A stretch of DNA of 64,000 nucleotides from a virus (taxonomy: Duplodnaviria > Caudoviricetes), in IMG/VR virus record IMGVR_UViG_3300043434_000734, positions 96,001-160,000 of that record; one strand, given 5' to 3'. The position numbers and the translations under genes are program-made. This document shows positions 21,573-61,762 of the stretch, in pieces. The notes under the pieces were generated by a model that did no database searches, was not told the origin of the DNA, and was given only the letters and a program-made list of their open reading frames with translations. Positions within the stretch are counted from its first letter, which is position 1. Every line of letters begins with the position of its first letter.

Positions 21573-21764
21573 ATGATTATAATTGACTTATCTAAAGAAA
21601 AAAGCATAGAGAGTGCGTTAAGGACTTACAAACAGAAAGTTCAAAAAACTAAACAGATTCAAAAATTGAGGGAAAGAAAAGAATTCACCAAACCTTCAGT
21701 TATTAAAAGAAATGAAAAGTTGAAGGCAGTCTATGTACAACAAATAAAAAATGGTCTTAATTAA
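21573..21764 (+). CDS. rpsU: Ribosomal protein bS21
   Basis: IESALRTYKQKV.KT.....LRERKEFTKPSVIKR (F.KPS..R signature), 63 aa. Confidence 0.92.
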   Translation: MIIIDLSKEKSIESALRTYKQKVQKTKQIQKLRERKEFTKPSVIKRNEKLKAVYVQQIKNGLN

Positions 21765-31282: not shown

Positions 31283-33301
31283 ATGTCTGTAGATTTTTTT
31301 GAAGAAGGACCAACCACAAATCCTAAAAAAGTAAGAAAAGGGTCTAACACCCCAATTCTTGATAATTTTTCTCGTGACCTTATTAAAATGGCCGAGGAAG
31401 GTAAAATTGACCCTGTTGTTGGTAGGGACAAGGAGGTAAAAAGAATTGCTCAGATTCTTTCTCGAAAAAAGAAAAATAATGCCGTAATTGTTGGTGATGC
31501 TGGTGTTGGTAAATCAGCATTGGTTGAAAAATTAGCAATTATGATTTATAAAGGTGAATGTCCATCTAATTTGTTAGATAAAAGAGTTATGTCTCTTGAT
31601 TTAACTTCATTAGTTGCGGGTACAAAATACCGAGGTCAATTTGAGGAAAGAATTAAAGCAATTTTAAATGAATTACAAGAAAATCCAAATGTAATTGTTT
31701 TCATCGATGAATTACATACAATGGTGGGTGCGGGTAATGCAAGTGGTGCAATGGATGCGGCTAATATCCTTAAACCCGCCTTAGCTCGTGGAGAAATTCA
31801 ATGTATCGGTGCAACCACATTTGACGAATTTAAAAAACACATTGAAAAAGATGCCGCGTTAGTTAGACGTTTTCAAAAGGTGATATTAAAAGAACCAACA
31901 CAAGAAGAGACAGTTGAAATCTTACGTAATTTACAAGAATCATATCAAGAGTATCATAAAGTATCATATGATGAGGGTGTTATTGAATCGATAGTAAAAC
32001 TTTCACATCGTTATATTACGGATAGACAATTTCCTGATAAGGCAATTGATGTATTAGACGAATTAGGTTCAGAAAAACGAGTATCGAGTCGAACACCTGA
32101 ATCGATTGAAAAATTAAAACGTGAAGTTGACGAAATTAAGGAGAAAAAAATACAAGTCGTAAAAAATCAAAATTATGAACAAGCGGCAAAACTTCGTGAT
32201 GAAGAAAAGAAAGTAATTACCAAACTTGAAGATGAAAAATTAAAATGGGTCGATAAACAAAAGAATAATAAAACACCTGTTAGTGTCAGTGATGTTTACG
32301 ATATCATTTCTGATATGACAGGGGTACCTATTACAAAATTAGACACTAAAGAAACTCAAAAGTTATTGAAATTAGAGTCTATTTTATCTACTAAAGTTAT
32401 CGGTCAAAATGAAGCAATCACTTCTATTTCAAAATCAATTAGAAGAAATCGAGTTGGTATAAAAGACGGTAATAAACCAATTGGTTCATTTATCTTCATT
32501 GGTTCTACCGGTGTTGGTAAAACATTTTTAGCGAAATCAATTGCGGATATTTTATTTGGGGATTCAGAAAAAATTATTCGTGTAGATATGAGTGAATTTA
32601 TGGAGAAACATAATGTATCTAAATTGATTGGTTCCCCTCCAGGTTATGTTGGTTATGACGAGGGAGGACAATTAACTGAAAAAGTTAAAAACAATCCATT
32701 TTCAGTAATTTTATTTGACGAGATTGAAAAGGCACATAAAGACGTTTTCAATTTATTATTACAAATTTTAGATGAGGGTCATTTGACTGATTCGTTTGGT
32801 AGAAAAGTAAACTTTACCAATACAATCATTATTATGACATCTAATATTGGGGCAAAACGAGTTTCCGAATTTGGGGGAGGAGTTGGATTCTCAACTTCAT
32901 CAAGCGAACAACAAAAGTATGAAGTCAAAAAAACGATGATTCAGAAATCATTAAAACAACAATTTAATCCTGAATTTTTAAATCGTATTGATGATGTTAT
33001 TTTGTTTAATTCGTTAGATACTGAAACACTTAAAAAAATAATCACAATTGAAATGAGTAAACTAAATTCTCGTTTAATTGACAAGAATTATAAAATTACC
33101 TTTGATAAAACAGTTATTAATAGAATATTCGAATTGAATAGTCAAGAAGAATATGGGGCTCGTCCACTTAAACGAATTATCCAAAATCTTTGCGAAGACT
33201 TTTTAAGTGAAGAAATATTAAAAGGTAATATTGTTGAAAATCAACTATATACCATCAAATATAAAAACGACGAATTAACGATTATTAAAAATTCTAAGTA
33301 G
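31283..33301 (+). CDS. clpC: ClpC-type AAA+ unfoldase lacking the N-terminal Clp-repeat domain
   Basis: Two NBDs (GDAGVGKS, GSTGVGKT), UVR-like M domain, VGF ClpP-docking loop; TATGTTTG promoter at 31253. Confidence 0.88.
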   Translation: MSVDFFEEGPTTNPKKVRKGSNTPILDNFSRDLIKMAEEGKIDPVVGRDKEVKRIAQILSRKKKNNAVIVGDAGVGKSALVEKLAIMIYKGECPSNLLDKRVMSLDLTSLVAGTKYRGQFEERIKAILNELQENPNVIVFIDELHTMVGAGNASGAMDAANILKPALARGEIQCIGATTFDEFKKHIEKDAALVRRFQKVILKEPTQEETVEILRNLQESYQEYHKVSYDEGVIESIVKLSHRYITDRQFPDKAIDVLDELGSEKRVSSRTPESIEKLKREVDEIKEKKIQVVKNQNYEQAAKLRDEEKKVITKLEDEKLKWVDKQKNNKTPVSVSDVYDIISDMTGVPITKLDTKETQKLLKLESILSTKVIGQNEAITSISKSIRRNRVGIKDGNKPIGSFIFIGSTGVGKTFLAKSIADILFGDSEKIIRVDMSEFMEKHNVSKLIGSPPGYVGYDEGGQLTEKVKNNPFSVILFDEIEKAHKDVFNLLLQILDEGHLTDSFGRKVNFTNTIIIMTSNIGAKRVSEFGGGVGFSTSSSEQQKYEVKKTMIQKSLKQQFNPEFLNRIDDVILFNSLDTETLKKIITIEMSKLNSRLIDKNYKITFDKTVINRIFELNSQEEYGARPLKRIIQNLCEDFLSEEILKGNIVENQLYTIKYKNDELTIIKNSK

Positions 33302-33966
33302 TGAATAGTAAAAGAAATCTTTGGGTATTTGGTGATTCATTTTCGGTTCCTTTTAAAAAAATTGAAAATGAACATCCTTATGTCCCTTACAAAGGATATT
33401 GCCCAAAGATTTTTTCGAATATTTTATCCGAAGAATTGGATTTAAACTTAATGGATATGTCAATGGGTGGATGTTCAAATCAATCGATATTCCACACCTA
33501 TATAAAAAACATTAATAAGATAAATGATAATGATATTGTCATTTTTGGTTGGACTCAACCAATTAGATTTAGAATTGCATCTAAACGTAATGATTTTTAT
33601 GATGTAATAATTGCGGTTGCACCTTATATGAGGGAATTTATCGACATATCAATAGATACGTTAAATGAAATAACAATTAATAGATTAACATACTCAATCG
33701 TTTGGGACGAACTAATCGATTACATTAACATAATAGGTAAGTCATCACCCGGATCTCAAATTTTTCATTGGACGTGGGTTGAACCAACAAATAATATCGG
33801 TGTCGACATATACGAACGTAACTTCTTTGAATTATTATTACCCTTCAAAAAGTACAAAACTGTAAAAGAAGAAACTAATGGTGATGTGGACGATTTTCAC
33901 TATGGTGAAATTGGTCATCGTGAATTGGCCAATGATTTATTGATTGAAATTAAAAAAATGTCATAA
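33301..33966 (+). CDS. SGNH-hydrolase-like protein
   Basis: VFGDSFS ... DDFHYGEIGH. Confidence 0.65.
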   Translation: MNSKRNLWVFGDSFSVPFKKIENEHPYVPYKGYCPKIFSNILSEELDLNLMDMSMGGCSNQSIFHTYIKNINKINDNDIVIFGWTQPIRFRIASKRNDFYDVIIAVAPYMREFIDISIDTLNEITINRLTYSIVWDELIDYINIIGKSSPGSQIFHWTWVEPTNNIGVDIYERNFFELLLPFKKYKTVKEETNGDVDDFHYGEIGHRELANDLLIEIKKMS

Positions 33967-34005
33967 ATACTTTACTTTTTGTTAAAAATATATATATTTA
34001 TATTC

Positions 34006-34108
34006 TCAGAGGTTCTCTTTGTCGATTACCTTTTCGTTTTTTTTCATAAGTAAGTGAAGTTGAATTCACCGAAAGACCTTAAAACCCCGACAAATCGTTG
34101 GGGTTTTT
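34006..34108 (+). ncRNA. Putative sRNA A
   Basis: TATTTATA at 33995-34002, internal hairpin, terminator 34082-34108; sequence blocks shared with 61656-61713. Confidence 0.5.
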
Positions 34109-34152
34109 ACTGCATTTTGTTTTCTCAAAATTATTTAGTATATTTACTTTAT

Positions 34153-34368
34153 ATGAAAAAAGTAACATTTATTTTGACCATTGGTGTATTATTTACATTG
34201 ATGTCTTGTGGTTCAGAGTCTACCACAACTCAAACAACTGACTCCACTACAGTTCAATCTGACACCACCACGGTATCGACTGATTCTACAGTATCGGGAG
34301 TACCGGTAGAAGCAACTGAATTACATTCAGATGTAGAAAACCCAACTTCTAATCAAGAAGTAAAATAA
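34153..34368 (+). CDS. Small Thr/Ser-rich lipoprotein
   Basis: MKK-hydrophobic-LMSC lipobox. Confidence 0.8.
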   Translation: MKKVTFILTIGVLFTLMSCGSESTTTQTTDSTTVQSDTTTVSTDSTVSGVPVEATELHSDVENPTSNQEVK

Positions 34369-59839: not shown

Positions 59840-59870
59840 AAAAAAACCCACCTAAATGGTGGGTTTTTTA
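59840..59870. terminator. Bidirectional terminator after tmRNA
   Basis: aaaaaacccacc-taaat-ggtgggtttttt. Confidence 0.88.
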
Positions 59871-61603
59871 TTTTCTATTAAACTCATTAGGTGTTCGGCT
59901 AATTCCATATGTCCCACTCTTCCAGTGTGACCGTCCATAACTCCACCATTGGTTTCATCTTTAATTAAACTATATTTCTTATAAGGTATCATATTGTCAA
60001 AACATTTCTTCTTGTGATTGACGGAACCAAAATGTTTAATATTAAATTCGTTGTGTGCGAACCTTTGTCTCTCAGGTGTTCCGTATTCAATGTTGACAAT
60101 TGCAATTTTTTTACCATTATCCGCCAATTTTTTCATCTCAACTAAATCAACGTCGGTTTTTAAATCAACAACATAATCACAATTATTGTTAATCACTTCT
60201 TTTAATTTATCATCGGTATCTCTCCAATTTGGTACCATTAAAGAATGTTTTAAATCAATACTTTCTTGTGACCATATGTTATTTGATACCACAATTTCAG
60301 GATCAACCCAAGTCCAATGGTATATTTTATTTTTGGGTAATAAATTTTTAATCACATCCATAAATTGACTTATTTCTGTCCACCAAATTGAATGAGTGTC
60401 TCTATTAATCGACAATTGTTGGGTACTCGATAAATCTACATCGTCGTTTTGTTTTGGATGTGGTGTGTTTGGTAAGATATCAACAAAGGAATTTACATTA
60501 TTCGCTAATTTAAATCTATTGATTGCTGTCCAACCAAATACCAAAATATCATTTGGTTTTATGGATTTGTAATTGTCCATAAATTTATCAAATATAGTGT
60601 AGTTAGAACATCCACCTATACCGTAGTTATGTAATTCAATGTCATATTTTTTAGAAATTATTTCACTGTAAGTTTCAGGTATGTCACCTAAAAAATCAAA
60701 ATAGTTTTTTGCCCAAACCGTACCAGCATCAAAGTGCGATTTAAATGTTTTTGTATGTGAATCACCAAACGCAAATAATCTCGGTTTTAATCTATCCTCA
60801 ATCATTTTAATTATTTTTTCACCATACATCTTATTACCAAAATAACCGGGATGTTTATCATCGGTAATACCGGGTACCTCATCTTTAATTGTTTGACCGT
60901 TGAATGTGCAGAACTGATTAACACAATTATATTCACCAAATTTTAAATTTTTTTTTGGGTCCAACAAAGAATAAAACTCATCGTATGGATTTTTCATACT
61001 CTCATCGTCAAACCAATAAAAGAATTCAATATTATTTTTTTCTAAAAAACTAAACAACCCAACAAGTTCACCTCTGTATCTATCAACATAGGCAACCGGA
61101 TTGTGATATTTTGATAAATATTCTTTAGTTTCGTCGGTAATTCTACCCTCAAAAAATTCACGTGAATACTTTATTTTATCTTTAGTGATAACTTCTTGTA
61201 TCTGTATTCCTGATAAATTACCAATATTTCTGTCATCGTCATATCTCACATTTGTAATTGCATAATCACCAATTTCATTATAATATTGGTCGACCCTATG
61301 TACTGGACTTGTAATCTCCAATAAGAATAAAGTTTTTCTTGCTTTCTCAATACCAATCTCTTCAATATGTTCATACGTTCTTCTAACTAGTCTTGGTGCT
61401 CCCGAACCCGAAAAAGCATCGTGTATTAATGAAACACCAAAATGGTTGGCGATGTATTTTGGATATGTGACATCTTTTTCATTATCCCATTCTATATTAT
61501 ATAATCTCTTATACTCATTTTTAATCATCCCTTGGTCTAAACCACCACCCGCAGTTAGTGAAGAACCATTAACATATATTCTTGTAAAGTTGTAATATTT
61601 CAT
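59852..61603 (-). CDS. Tandem SGNH-like domain protein, paralog of 33301-33966
   Basis: YVNGSSLT..DDKHP and FAFGDSHT..DGH. Confidence 0.65.
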   Translation of the reverse strand: MKYYNFTRIYVNGSSLTAGGGLDQGMIKNEYKRLYNIEWDNEKDVTYPKYIANHFGVSLIHDAFSGSGAPRLVRRTYEHIEEIGIEKARKTLFLLEITSPVHRVDQYYNEIGDYAITNVRYDDDRNIGNLSGIQIQEVITKDKIKYSREFFEGRITDETKEYLSKYHNPVAYVDRYRGELVGLFSFLEKNNIEFFYWFDDESMKNPYDEFYSLLDPKKNLKFGEYNCVNQFCTFNGQTIKDEVPGITDDKHPGYFGNKMYGEKIIKMIEDRLKPRLFAFGDSHTKTFKSHFDAGTVWAKNYFDFLGDIPETYSEIISKKYDIELHNYGIGGCSNYTIFDKFMDNYKSIKPNDILVFGWTAINRFKLANNVNSFVDILPNTPHPKQNDDVDLSSTQQLSINRDTHSIWWTEISQFMDVIKNLLPKNKIYHWTWVDPEIVVSNNIWSQESIDLKHSLMVPNWRDTDDKLKEVINNNCDYVVDLKTDVDLVEMKKLADNGKKIAIVNIEYGTPERQRFAHNEFNIKHFGSVNHKKKCFDNMIPYKKYSLIKDETNGGVMDGHTGRVGHMELAEHLMSLIENKKPTI

Positions 61604-61643: not shown

Positions 61644-61739
61644 TTAAACGAACAAAGAGGTCTTTAGGACCCCCTTGTCGAGATTAAGAACACCTCCTTT
61701 TCGTTTATATAAGTTATCGTTTAATGGCGACCAAACCAA
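61644..61739 (-). CDS. Possible 31-aa TTG-start leader peptide containing an extended SD
   Basis: (M)VWSPLNDNLYKRKGGVLNLDKGVLKTSLFV*; TATTTATA motif at 61751-61758. Confidence 0.35.
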   Translation of the reverse strand: MVWSPLNDNLYKRKGGVLNLDKGVLKTSLFV

Positions 61740-61762
61740 TTAAACTCTCTTATAAATATCGT

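What the first reader, a model, noticed from the sequence alone, without database searches (positions are those of the whole stretch)
33995..34108. Putative sRNA A shares ordered sequence blocks with the extended-SD leader 27 kb away
Architecture: TATTTATA, then ~100 nt, then a terminator. Blocks agaggt, ttgtcga, att, ccttttcgttt and ataag occur in the same order at 61656-61713. A + strand RNA from here would therefore be complementary to the minus-strand leader transcript, overlapping the 5' part of its extended SD. In addition, tttgtcg (34018-24) can pair with cgacaaa (34088-94) in its own terminator, a possible switch for the downstream lipoprotein. Antisense also reads as a mini-ORF, MKKNEKVIDKENL*.
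Basis: partly seen in the sequence, partly recalled or inferred. Interest (0 to 1): 0.7.

Follow-up and report, generated by a model that had tools for sequence, protein, structure and literature searches.

The report
Phage small RNA partnering SD-decoy RNA
This 100-base stretch is a real, very strongly conserved small-RNA gene of giant lake phages that carry their own ribosomal protein S21, and its best-kept bases stay complementary to a second phage small RNA that imitates a ribosome-binding site, so the two probably work as an RNA pair that meddles with the host's ribosome control.

Summary
Window 34006-34108 (+) is a stand-alone small-RNA gene ("A") with a Bacteroidota-type promoter, hairpin P1 with a conserved hexaloop, a U-rich linker, hairpin P2 and an intrinsic terminator. 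It occurs in at least 140 IMG/VR phage contigs, always just after a phage ClpC-like ATPase gene. Both hairpins show compensatory changes, and no Rfam family matches.

The "leader" 27 kb away is a second conserved small RNA ("B", 61750-61644, minus strand). In most relatives no gene follows it. Its core is a 13-nt Shine-Dalgarno-like decoy.

A's loop and linker are complementary to the two B segments that flank that core. B is the best non-self duplex partner of A in the window, and ranks 1, 2 and 1 in three divergent phages. In 21 phages carrying both RNAs, the variable loop pair is U-A, U.G or C-G, never C.A. Cognate pairs are more stable than swapped ones. Pairing remains unproven: B's sites are internally folded, and no RNA data exist.

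New here: A's reverse complement resembles the start of host rpsU (bS21).

The terminator switch and the antisense mini-ORF are not supported.

This scan had already reported the A/B pair on other phage genomes.

The parts
33971..34000 (+). Promoter of sRNA A: -33-type box TTTACT (TTGACT in most relatives) at 33971-33976, a 16-nt spacer counted to the sigma-70-type hexamer TATATT, and a Bacteroidota -7-type box TATATTTA at 33993-34000.
   Evidence: One search lists TTTACT-16-TATATT ending at 33998. The block TTGACTTTTT..N..ATATATATTTATAT is conserved in 80+ relatives, and the next ~6 nt (the likely start site) are variable. The TTG-N19-TAnnTTTG consensus is from my own knowledge of Bacteroidota promoters. 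ATATTTATA occurs 8 times in the window, including in front of sRNA B.
34006..34108 (+). sRNA A transcript. The 5' end is inferred to within about 3 nt; the 3' end is the U-tail of the terminator.
   Evidence: CM R1 hit at 34004-34118, 128.8 bits, the only copy in the window. G.U pairs exist only on the + strand. MFE -26.6 kcal/mol, z -2.4.
34009..34032 (+). Hairpin P1: outer stem GAGGU/ACCUU, inner UC/GA, hexaloop UUUGUC (34018-34023). The loop plus adjacent bases (UUGUCGA, 34019-34025) is A's first site complementary to B.
   Evidence: P1 folds in all 34 diverse members. Outer-stem variants keep Watson-Crick pairing: GGU/ACC, GGA/UCC, GGC/GCC, GGGUU/AACCC and GGUA/UACC. The loop UCUUUG(U/C)CGA is nearly invariant.
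34029..34039 (+). CCUUUUCGUUU, spanning the 3' strand of P1 and the start of the U-rich linker. This is A's second site complementary to B (AAACGAAAAGG). It also partly resembles the 16S 3' tail.
   Evidence: The 5' 32 nt of A have a median 91% identity to the window in relatives retrieved through the neighbouring protein, against 75% for the ClpC-like gene DNA.
34054..34069 (+). Hairpin P2: GUGAA-GUUGAA-UUCAC. The loop GUUGAA is invariant.
   Evidence: 4 of 5 pairs show changes on both sides. 99.4% of cells are paired, and 0 of 500 shuffles reach the observed values. The window's GUGAA/UUCAC against the common GUGGG/CCCAC is itself a double compensation.
34075..34078 (+). Invariant single-stranded GACC between P2 and the terminator. 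Its role is unknown.
   Evidence: The alignments show A70 G72 A73 C74 C75 invariant and nearly invariant in the diverse set. It does not covary with the 5' AGGU.
34081..34108 (+). Intrinsic terminator: AAAACCCCGAC-AAAUC-GUUGGGGUUUU plus a U-tail.
   Evidence: G.U alternates with A-U at one pair and GC/UA variants occur. The simple scan missed it because the A/U extension of the stem consumes the T-run.
34156..34368 (+). Downstream lipoprotein gene (70 aa, lipobox LMSC). It has its own promoter-like box GTATATTTAC just upstream and is not part of the RNA.
   Evidence: It is present downstream of A in 115 of 124 loci.
31283..33301 (+). ClpC/ClpB-like AAA+ ATPase gene, the constant upstream neighbour of sRNA A. 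In this window and 13 other loci a 221-aa gene (33301-33966) is inserted between the two.
   Evidence: Pfam AAA_2, AAA_lid_9 and ClpB_D2-small; PHROG 4871. Synteny in 118 loci.
61644..61758 (-). sRNA B, the partner: promoter box at 61751-61758, P1 hairpin with loop UGGUUUGGUCGCC, conserved core, and a GC hairpin followed by UUUUGUUCGUUU.
   Evidence: Conserved in 30+ contigs with covarying hairpins. CM R2. MFE -31.6 kcal/mol, z -4.1.
61696..61706 (-). B site 1, AAACGAAAAGG, complementary to A 34029-34039. It overlaps the 5' AAAGG of B's 13-nt SD-like core (61688-61700).
61675..61681 (-). B site 2, UCGACAA, complementary to the A loop region 34019-34025. It contains the A/G position that tracks A's U/C.
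21574..21764 (+). Phage bS21 (rpsU) gene, context for the proposed function. It has no SD in front, and its 5' region is not complementary to A.
   Evidence: Pfam PF01165, 41.7 bits. Sequence. Duplex with A only -14.7 kcal/mol. bS21 is present in 4 of 5 long related contigs.

Best explanation
Window 34006-34108 (+) encodes a stand-alone, trans-acting small RNA of about 100 nt (sRNA A). It belongs to a clade of giant freshwater phages that encode bS21 and are predicted to infect Bacteroidota.

Shown by comparison:
- It has its own conserved promoter and intrinsic terminator.
- It has two hairpins supported by compensatory changes.
- Its 5' module, the P1 hexaloop plus the following linker, is extremely conserved.

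Inferred mechanism: the P1 loop (UUUGYCGA) makes first contact with UCGRCAA in the second phage small RNA, sRNA B (61750-61644, minus strand). B's core AAAGGAGGUGUUC imitates the extended Shine-Dalgarno of rpsU. Pairing then spreads to A's CCUUUUCGUUU and B's AAACGAAAAGG. The two helices bracket B's SD core, cover its 5' AAAGG, and displace B's own 3' strand, which looks like A's 5' region.

A would therefore act as an anti-sRNA, an antidote or tuner, for the SD-decoy RNA. Equally, B could buffer A.

My odds: A is a real structured small-RNA gene, about 0.93. A and B pair functionally, about 0.5-0.55. The direction and consequence of the pairing are unknown.
For: Gene status:
- The exact 21-mer of the core occurs in at least 118 viral contigs.
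- A covariance model finds divergent copies behind ClpC-like genes of about 70-80% identity, and only one copy in the window.
- Synteny is ClpC-like gene, A, lipoprotein, PNK-like kinase, Rnl1-like ligase.
- In the unbiased set, A's 5' 32 nt have a median 91% identity against 75% for the ClpC-like DNA.
- P2 covariation: 4 of 5 pairs change on both sides, and 0 of 500 shuffles match.
- P1 keeps Watson-Crick pairing through GGU/ACC, GGA/UCC, GGC/GCC and GGGUU/AACCC.
- G.U pairs exist only on the + strand.

Partner:
- B is itself a conserved structured small RNA.
- B is the best non-self duplex of A in the window (-32.5 against -27.4 kcal/mol).
- B ranks 1, 2 and 1 in three divergent contigs whose A and B sequences differ from the window's.
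- In 21 phages with both RNAs, the variable loop pair is U-A in 9, U.G in 7 and C-G in 4, with no C.A at that position; the remaining phage, G010, is U-A there but has a C.A mismatch at the adjacent pair.
- On the ClpC-like tree, the C state arose in three separate lineages, each with G in B.
- Second-block compensations: UUCUCG with CGAGAA in G005, and CCUUUCG with CGAAAGG in G010.
- Cognate A/B duplexes average -23.0 against -21.5 kcal/mol for non-cognate ones. No permutation in 20,000 did as well, although this is not corrected for phylogeny.
- Among 7 lineage representatives, cognate beats swapped in 18 of 21 comparisons, with 2 ties.
Against: - No expression data: neither A nor B has been seen as RNA.
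- On duplex energy alone, 2 of 31 shuffled A sequences find an equally good site in the window.
- Plain alignment scores are within chance.
- B's two target segments are base-paired in B's own predicted fold. Full-length co-folding therefore gains only -5.4 kcal/mol, and 25 of 200 shuffled-A controls match that.
- The covariation rests on few independent events: three C lineages, with a Fisher-type p of about 0.09 before phylogeny. A pair of single mutations on a tree can also yield three of four combinations.
- One phage (G010) has a C.A mismatch next to the variable pair.
- The complementarity could be inherited from a common origin rather than selected.
Confidence: 0.5

Rival explanations
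1. A is primarily an antisense RNA against the host's rpsU (bS21) mRNA. In this reading, B is a shortened mimic of that mRNA's 5' end: SD plus the same two A-binding segments. A's loop region would pair with codons I-D-K/R-A (AUCGAYAARG or AUCGAYAGAG). A's linker would pair either with the adjacent K-E-N-E codons (AAAACGAA), as in Cytophagales-like rpsU, or with the AACGARAGG flank of the extended SD, as in Flavobacteriales-like rpsU. The phage would silence host bS21 while supplying its own recoded bS21. This does not exclude A-B pairing.
For: - The reverse complement of A's 5' region, AAAACGAA-AAGGUA-AUCGACAAAG, matches rpsU of several Bacteroidota (AAAACGAA-UCN-AUCGACAAAG) in the same order, with a one-codon length difference.
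- A against 33 rpsU 5' regions gives a median duplex of -18.8 kcal/mol, against -14.6 +/- 1.3 for dinucleotide shuffles; 5 of 400 shuffles do as well.
- The phage's own bS21 5' region scores only -14.7.
- The clade encodes bS21.
- SD-bearing rpsU leaders L279, L350 and L355 read AACGA(G/A)AGG(A/G)GGUG, like B.
- bS21 autoregulation through an extended SD is established in Flavobacterium johnsoniae (PMC9976891).
Against: - The idea arose post hoc from one genome, and the host is unknown.
- Energies of -19 to -24 kcal/mol are common genome-wide, with 1-30% of local background windows as good.
- The widespread GCCG loop variant of A would mismatch the invariant Asp codon of rpsU, yet it matches B's CGGC. 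The covariation therefore tracks B, not rpsU.
- Block 1 lies in different places (coding region or leader) in different orders, which leaves room for forking-path error.
- The target site (codons ~8-15) lies downstream of the usual window for blocking initiation.
Confidence: 0.28
2. A and B are complementary only because they share an origin: an inverted duplication of an rpsU-derived segment. Each is now conserved for a separate reason. For example, A might be a protein-binding RNA through its invariant GUUGAA loop and GACC, or might act on other phage or host mRNAs, and B might be a ribosome decoy. They do not pair in vivo.
For: - A's 5' region resembles B's own 3' strand (CUCUUUGU(U)CG).
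- The modest co-fold gain is matched by 12% of shuffled controls.
- B's sites are occluded in B's own fold.
- A has invariant elements (P2 loop, GACC) that have no complement in B.
Against: - Complementarity is kept or restored in lineages where both RNAs changed.
- Cross-lineage swaps lose 3-13 kcal/mol.
- C.A was never seen at the variable pair in 21 genomes.
Confidence: 0.15
3. The element is a cis-acting leader or attenuator controlling read-through into the downstream lipoprotein gene, using a loop-terminator alternative pairing.
For: - A terminator lies 48 nt upstream of the lipoprotein ATG, and the lipoprotein follows in 115 of 124 loci.
- UGUCG and CGACA are complementary in most members.
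Against: - Loop GUCG to GCCG changes are never compensated in the terminator.
- Two of the window's 7 pairs are not conserved.
- A conserved promoter-like box (G)TATATTTAC sits between the terminator and the ATG.
- Several loci have a different downstream sequence.
- The most conserved bases are in a hairpin loop and linker, as in trans-acting RNAs.
Confidence: 0.05
4. The minus strand encodes a 13-aa micro-protein, or the region is a DNA-level site, and there is no functional RNA.
For: An ATG...TGA frame, MKKNEKVIDKENL, exists on the minus strand in this window.
Against: - The frame is intact in only 17 of 115 distinct members, and U-run indels are not multiples of three.
- Hairpins covary, with G.U pairs only on the + strand.
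- The promoter and terminator face the + direction.
Confidence: 0.02

Closest known systems
Phage-encoded anti-sRNAs (sponges), for example AgvB acting on GcvB and AsxR on FnrS in enterohaemorrhagic E. coli prophages (PMC4104026)
   Same: A short RNA made by a phage, with its own promoter and terminator. Its conserved unpaired stretch is complementary to the functional region of another small RNA, so that one RNA titrates or tunes the other.
   Different: - Here both partners are phage-encoded, in a lytic-type giant phage of Bacteroidota, which have no Hfq.
- The partner is an SD or rpsU-site mimic, not an mRNA-targeting sRNA.
- Pairing is split into two helices that bracket the partner's active core.
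- There is no sequence relationship to AgvB or AsxR.
- Pairing is predicted here, not demonstrated.
Loop-initiated antisense RNAs: CopA/CopT, RNA I/RNA II, and the c4 RNA of phages P1/P7 (reviewed in PMC12197685)
   Same: - A conserved apical loop (UUUGYC, which contains a YUNR-like UUUG) on a short hairpin is the most conserved element and is complementary to the target.
- Pairing would have to spread by opening weak stems.
- c4 also acts in trans through two short sites.
   Different: - Those RNAs are mostly cis-encoded with full complementarity; A and B lie 4-27 kb apart with only 7 + 11 nt.
- Their targets are replication primers or mRNAs, not an SD-decoy RNA.
- The U-turn geometry of A's loop is my inference and was not tested.
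Extended Shine-Dalgarno autoregulation of rpsU (bS21) in Flavobacteriales (PMC9976891, PMC7797042, PMC13000453) and bS21-encoding phages (PMC9723584)
   Same: - It is the biological circuit that this RNA pair appears to address.
- B copies the extended SD.
- A overlaps the SD's 5' part, and A's antisense resembles the start of rpsU.
- The phage clade carries bS21, like the phages of PMC9723584.
   Different: - The known circuit uses only the mRNA, the 16S tail and the bS21 protein. No small RNA has been described in it.
- The bS21-phage paper does not mention sRNA or tmRNA.
Rfam families (release 15)
   Same: The nearest scores are for generic terminator-bearing sRNAs: AgrB 24.4 bits (gathering score 40) and PsrR1 20.9 bits (gathering score 42).
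   Different: - Nothing reaches a gathering score.
- The matches cover only the terminator and U-rich stretch.
- A is therefore an undescribed family.

Membership tests
Trans-encoded base-pairing small RNA | Independent transcription unit: own promoter and Rho-independent terminator, with no ORF | tested here: met
   - The promoter block and terminator are conserved in 80+ members.
- The antisense ORF is not conserved.
- No + strand ORF lies inside the unit.
- Promoter activity itself is inferred from consensus.
Trans-encoded base-pairing small RNA | Conserved, accessible seed region | tested here: met
   - The P1 loop and linker are nearly invariant, and are more conserved than the neighbouring protein gene DNA (91% against 75%).
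- They are predicted to be unpaired or only weakly paired.
Trans-encoded base-pairing small RNA | Complementary target whose site co-varies with the seed | tested here: inconclusive
   - B ranks first in 3 of 4 genomes.
- The variable pair is U-A, U.G or C-G and never C.A in 21 genomes, and cognate duplexes beat swapped ones.
- But independent events are few, there is one nearby mismatch, and co-fold controls are weak.
Trans-encoded base-pairing small RNA | Detected as a discrete RNA in cells | not testable with these tools
   No run on record as RNA holds the locus.
Anti-sRNA / RNA sponge | The partner is itself a regulatory small RNA, and pairing covers its functional region | tested here: met
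   - B is a conserved structured sRNA.
- A's second site overlaps AAAGG of B's 13-nt SD-like core, and the two sites bracket that core.
- This is computational only.
Anti-sRNA / RNA sponge | Sequestration or decay of the partner changes its output | not testable with these tools
   Needs experiments.
Transcription attenuator / riboswitch-type leader of the downstream gene | Conserved alternative (anti-terminator) pairing that competes with the terminator | tested here: not met
   The proposed loop-terminator pairing is not compensated when the loop changes, and is only 5 bp in most members.
Transcription attenuator / riboswitch-type leader of the downstream gene | The downstream gene depends on the leader's promoter | tested here: not met
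   A conserved -7-type box TATATTTAC lies between the terminator and the lipoprotein ATG. The inference is from sequence only.
Any Rfam 15 family | Score at or above the family's gathering threshold | tested here: not met
Small protein gene (minus strand) | Reading frame conserved among relatives | tested here: not met
   17 of 115 distinct sequences keep an ATG frame across the core.

The most novel reading that the evidence does not exclude
A, B and the phage bS21 gene form one takeover module for the host's bS21 autoregulatory loop. A silences host rpsU mRNA by two-site pairing: the 5' half of the extended SD or the K-E-N-E codons, plus the I-D-K/R-A codons. The recoded phage bS21 mRNA escapes. 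B is a miniaturised rpsU 5' end (SD plus both A sites, with the start codon deleted). It buffers A and/or captures bS21-free 30S subunits, and A-B pairing sets the timing. This would be the first RNA-level hijack of ribosome composition by a virus.
Probability: 0.18. Interest if true: 0.9.

Novelty: new variant of a known kind. Interest (0 to 1): 0.66.

Why it matters
Bacteroidota ribosomes hide their anti-Shine-Dalgarno tail under bS21. They use an extended SD only on rpsU, to sense bS21-free ribosomes (PMC7797042, PMC9976891). Giant lake phages are known to carry bS21 (PMC9723584), but how they exploit it is open.

A pair of conserved phage small RNAs gives this question concrete, testable parts. 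One RNA imitates the rpsU ribosome-binding site. The other is complementary both to that mimic and, more weakly, to the start of host rpsU.

It also adds an undescribed RNA family, found in at least 140 phage contigs, to a phylum in which sRNA biology without Hfq is poorly known. It offers a natural sRNA/anti-sRNA pair encoded entirely by a virus.

If the pairing is not functional, the finding is still a solid new conserved phage ncRNA of unknown role.

Tried and rejected
- DNA search of the locus in 50,697 GenBank phage records found only a distant AAA-ATPase match in an Aeromonas phage. No cultured relative was found.
- Rfam gave no family at gathering thresholds or at permissive E-values.
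- No whole genome is held for the window.
- The genome-contig scan for the 21-mer gave two chance matches inside coding regions (a Bacteroidales MAG and Oceanobacillus) and one true copy on a 942-bp contig binned with a Flectobacillus MAG. That is too weak to name a host.
- B is not a paralogue of A: CM R1 does not hit it.
- The 583-aa gene behind B and the 202-aa gene in front of it are not conserved partners.
- An alternative P1 in which the 5' AGGU pairs with the distal GACC was rejected: GGA variants pair with the proximal UCC, not with GACC.
- A pseudoknot between the P1 loop UCUUU and AAAGA was rejected because AAAGA is not conserved (AAUGA, UAGA).
- A T-loop reading of P2 was rejected because the loop has 6 or 8 nt, not 7.
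- Full-length co-folding as a test of pairing was uninformative: -5.4 kcal/mol, with 25 of 200 controls as good.
- The top duplex hit in G005 lies inside a coding region, is G.U-rich, and was treated as chance.
- The phage bS21 leader has no SD and no complementarity to A.
- Sequencing runs: no RNA holder is listed. Only freshwater or aquatic DNA metagenome runs hold the locus.
- Clp loci of about 60% identity have no detectable A. Absence versus divergence was not resolved.
- Complex prediction and the structure tools were not relevant to an RNA finding.
Full report
**1. The observation**

The finding lies in the 189-nt gap between a 221-aa gene (33301-33966) and a 70-aa lipoprotein gene (ATG at 34156).
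- TATTTATA at 33995.
- About 100 nt, then the terminator CCCCGAC-AAATC-GTTGGGG-T5 (34081-34108).
- The blocks AGAGGT, TTGTCGA, ATT, CCTTTTCGTTT and ATAAG, in the same order at 34008-34050 and at 61656-61713.
- The self-complementary TTTGTCG/CGACAAA.
- The minus-strand frame MKKNEKVIDKENL.

As DNA similarity the A/B match is unremarkable. With four scoring schemes it ranks 1st to 17th among window-wide local alignments.

**2. What site A is**

The window is part of a giant phage. It holds 24 tRNAs by ARAGORN (Rfam lists 25 tRNA matches), a tmRNA and a GOLLD RNA, but it has no close relative among GenBank phages.

Relatives were fetched through the upstream protein. In loci whose protein is only 59-82% identical, the intergenic region is almost unchanged. 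The window's hairpin GTGAA..TTCAC is replaced there by GTGGG..CCCAC, a double compensation.

The 81 distinct sequences align into:
- a conserved promoter (TTGACTTTTT ... ATATATATTTATAT);
- about 6 variable nt;
- an invariant 5' module;
- a U-run of variable length;
- hairpin P2 with the invariant loop GUUGAA;
- an invariant GACC;
- a terminator.

P2 is well supported. Four of its five pairs change on both sides, 99.4% of cells are paired, and 0 of 500 shuffles reach the observed values. G.U pairs are compatible only with the + strand.

To remove the bias of the 21-mer search, I retrieved 80 loci through the neighbouring ClpC-like ATPase and searched them with a covariance model. The RNA is found behind ATPase genes down to about 70% identity, but not in the ~60% identity group. 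In the window it is found only at 34004-34118 (128.8 bits), so site B is not a paralogue.

These divergent members expose hairpin P1:
- The outer stem AGGU/ACCU is replaced by AGGA/UCCU, AGGC/GCCU, GGGUU/AACCC or GGUA/UACC.
- The inner pairs are UC/GA.
- The hexaloop is UUUG(U/C)C.
- P1 folds in all 34 diverse sequences.

In this unbiased set, the 5' 32 nt have a median 91% identity to the window, against 75% for the ClpC-like gene DNA.

Synteny is strict: ClpC-like gene, A, lipoprotein, AAA_33 kinase, Rnl1-type RNA ligase. No Rfam family matches.

The promoter fits the Bacteroidota TTG-N19-TAnnTTTG type; that consensus is from my own knowledge. This puts the start at about 34005-34008.

Conclusion: sRNA A is a genuine, undescribed, structured small-RNA gene. 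My odds are about 0.93.

**3. What site B is**

The 21-mer around B's SD and a second pattern from its hairpin loop recovered more than 30 contigs. On the window's minus strand these show:
- a promoter box GATATTTATAAGAG;
- hairpin P1 (GUUUAAU-UGGUUUGGUCGCC-AUUAAAC), which covaries to GUCUGAU/GUUAGAC and ACCUAAU/GUUAGGU;
- a conserved core AAACGAAAAGGAGGU(G/A)UUCUUAAUCUCG(A/G)CAA;
- a covarying GC hairpin followed by UUUUGUUCGUUU.

In most relatives this unit runs straight into the terminator of the convergent tmRNA gene. The 583-aa ORF behind it in this window is not found there in relatives. B is therefore a second stand-alone small RNA, not just a leader.

Its AAAGGAGGUGUUC is the complement of the Bacteroidota-type 16S 3' tail. 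The tail sequence is from my own knowledge. The biology of the hidden anti-SD and of the extended SD of rpsU is in PMC7797042 and PMC9976891.

Earlier notes of this scan reached the same reading of B (e1-5405006, e1-5404981).

**4. Do A and B pair?**

A's loop region UUGUCGA is complementary to B's UCGACAA. A's CCUUUUCGUUU is complementary to B's AAACGAAAAGG. The two sites flank B's SD core and cover its AAAGG.

Evidence for pairing:
- With RNAduplex, B is the best non-self partner of A's 5' 34 nt among about 12,800 windows (-32.5 kcal/mol; next -27.4; mean -11.9, sd 3.8).
- The same scan ranks B 1st, 2nd and 1st in three divergent contigs (G004, G005, G007) whose A and B sequences differ from the window's. 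The one better hit lies inside a coding region and is G.U-rich.
- In 21 contigs carrying both RNAs, the variable pair (A: G[U/C]CG; B: CG[A/G]C) is U-A in 9, U.G in 7 and C-G in 4. C.A is never seen at this position; in the remaining contig, G010, this pair is U-A but the adjacent pair is a C.A mismatch.
- On a ClpC-like tree, A's state changes at least 3 times and B's at least 4 times. The three separate C lineages all have G in B.
- The second block also shows matched changes: UUCUCG with CGAGAA in G005, and a one-base shortening on both sides in G010.
- Cognate duplexes are more stable than non-cognate ones (-23.0 against -21.5 kcal/mol). No permutation in 20,000 did as well, although this is not corrected for phylogeny.
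- Among seven lineage representatives, cognate beats swapped in 18 of 21 comparisons, with 2 ties.

Evidence against pairing:
- 2 of 31 shuffled A sequences find an equally good site somewhere in the window.
- B's two sites are paired in B's own predicted fold: AAACGAA with UUCGUUU, and ACAAGGGGG with CCUCUUUGU.
- Full-length co-folding therefore gains only -5.4 kcal/mol, and 25 of 200 controls match that.
- G010 has a C.A mismatch beside the variable pair.
- Independent compensation events are few.
- No RNA-seq run holds the locus.

I put functional pairing at about 0.5-0.55. Because A's 5' region resembles B's own 3' strand, strand displacement that opens B is a plausible mechanism. This is an inference.

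**5. A new lead: rpsU**

The clade encodes bS21: in 4 of 5 long contigs and at window 21574-21764. This matches the bS21 phages of PMC9723584, which does not mention small RNAs.

While looking at rpsU in the one bacterial MAG that contains an A copy, I saw that the reverse complement of A's 5' module (AAAACGAA-AAGGUA-AUCGACAAAG) resembles rpsU codons K-E-N-E-S-I-D-K (AAAACGAG-UCA-AUCGACAAAG).

Supporting observations:
- Across Bacteroidota rpsU genes the motif recurs, with perfect 8 + 10 nt in L315 and L321. Flavobacteriales-type genes carry AUCGAYAGAG.
- A against 33 rpsU 5' regions gives a median of -18.8 kcal/mol, against -14.6 +/- 1.3 for shuffles; 5 of 400 shuffles do as well. The phage's own bS21 start scores -14.7.
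- SD-bearing rpsU leaders (L279, L350, L355) read AACGA(G/A)AGG(A/G)GGUG, like B.

This explains the peptide-like antisense frame. It also suggests that B is a shortened copy of the rpsU 5' end, and that A may additionally target host rpsU.

Cautions:
- The idea is post hoc.
- The energies are ordinary on a genome scale.
- The common GCCG variant of A would mismatch the Asp codon but matches B. The covariation therefore follows B.

My odds for a real A-rpsU interaction are about 0.28, and it does not exclude A-B pairing.

**6.

- The loop-terminator switch is not supported. Only 5 bp are conserved, and GCCG loops are never matched by CGGC in the terminator. The lipoprotein has its own promoter-like box.
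- The mini-ORF is intact in only 17 of 115 distinct members.

**7. Comparison with known systems, and novelty**

A works like a trans-acting, loop-initiated base-pairing sRNA. With B, it resembles a phage anti-sRNA/sRNA pair such as AgvB-GcvB (PMC4104026), or two-site antisense control such as c4 of P1/P7 (PMC12197685).

It differs in three ways. Both partners are viral. The partner is a ribosome-binding-site mimic. The host phylum lacks Hfq (from my own knowledge).

I found no paper describing these RNAs.

The same A/B pair was already reported by this scan on other phage genomes (e1-5392365, e1-5392537). My analysis reached the same conclusion before I read those notes. It adds the P1 structure, the negative co-fold and shuffle controls, the tree-mapped covariation, and the rpsU link.

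**Verdict:** a real new RNA family, a probable but unproven sRNA pair, and a new variant of a known kind. Interest 0.66.

Noticed in passing
window 59852-61603 (-): A 583-aa ORF sits between sRNA B and the tmRNA gene only in this phage. Its residues ~275-436 are homologous to the 221-aa protein (33301-33966) that is itself an insertion between the ClpC-like gene and sRNA A. Several paralogues occur in G001. A mobile or expanding protein family seems to insert next to both small-RNA genes.
   Followed up: partly
L152:5169-5281: One relative has a 5'-truncated copy of sRNA A. The promoter, P1 and the loop are replaced by AT-rich sequence, while the linker, P2 and the terminator remain. It is probably a decaying copy.
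   Followed up: no
window 4561, 33994, 39224(-), 42042(-), 47738, 48432, 59106, 61751(-): The 9-mer ATATTTATA occurs 8 times (4.2 expected). It lies in front of both small RNAs and near other non-coding units. It may mark one promoter class of this phage.
   Followed up: partly
window 21574-21764 (+): The phage bS21 gene has a perfect TAnnTTTG-type box (TATATTTG) and a leader of about 15 nt without any SD. This contrasts with the extended SD of many host rpsU genes and of sRNA B.
   Followed up: partly
L124 (942-bp contig of a Flectobacillus sp. MAG): This is a complete copy of the sRNA A locus with the end of the upstream gene and the start of the lipoprotein. It is either phage DNA binned with the MAG or a weak host hint (Cytophagales). 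That MAG's rpsU has no SD.
   Followed up: partly
L254 (G002) and L226: In some phages the SD core of sRNA B reads GGGGG or AGGGAGG instead of AGGAGG. The 'perfect' 13-nt complement to the 16S tail is therefore not invariant across the family.
   Followed up: no
L183-L205: Phages whose ClpC-like protein is only ~60% identical show no detectable sRNA A behind the gene (best 23-25 bits). Either the RNA is restricted to one sub-clade or it has diverged beyond the model.
   Followed up: no
window 34054-34078: The invariant P2 loop GUUGAA and the invariant single-stranded GACC of sRNA A have no complement in sRNA B and no explanation. They could be a protein-binding or third-partner site.
   Followed up: partly
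L247 (G004) and L249 (G005): In two divergent phages sRNA B carries a tandem duplication of the A-binding block (AAACGAAAA-UAACGAAAAGG and AAACGAGAA-CAAAACAAAAGG). Its P1 loop is shortened to UUUGGUCG.
   Followed up: no
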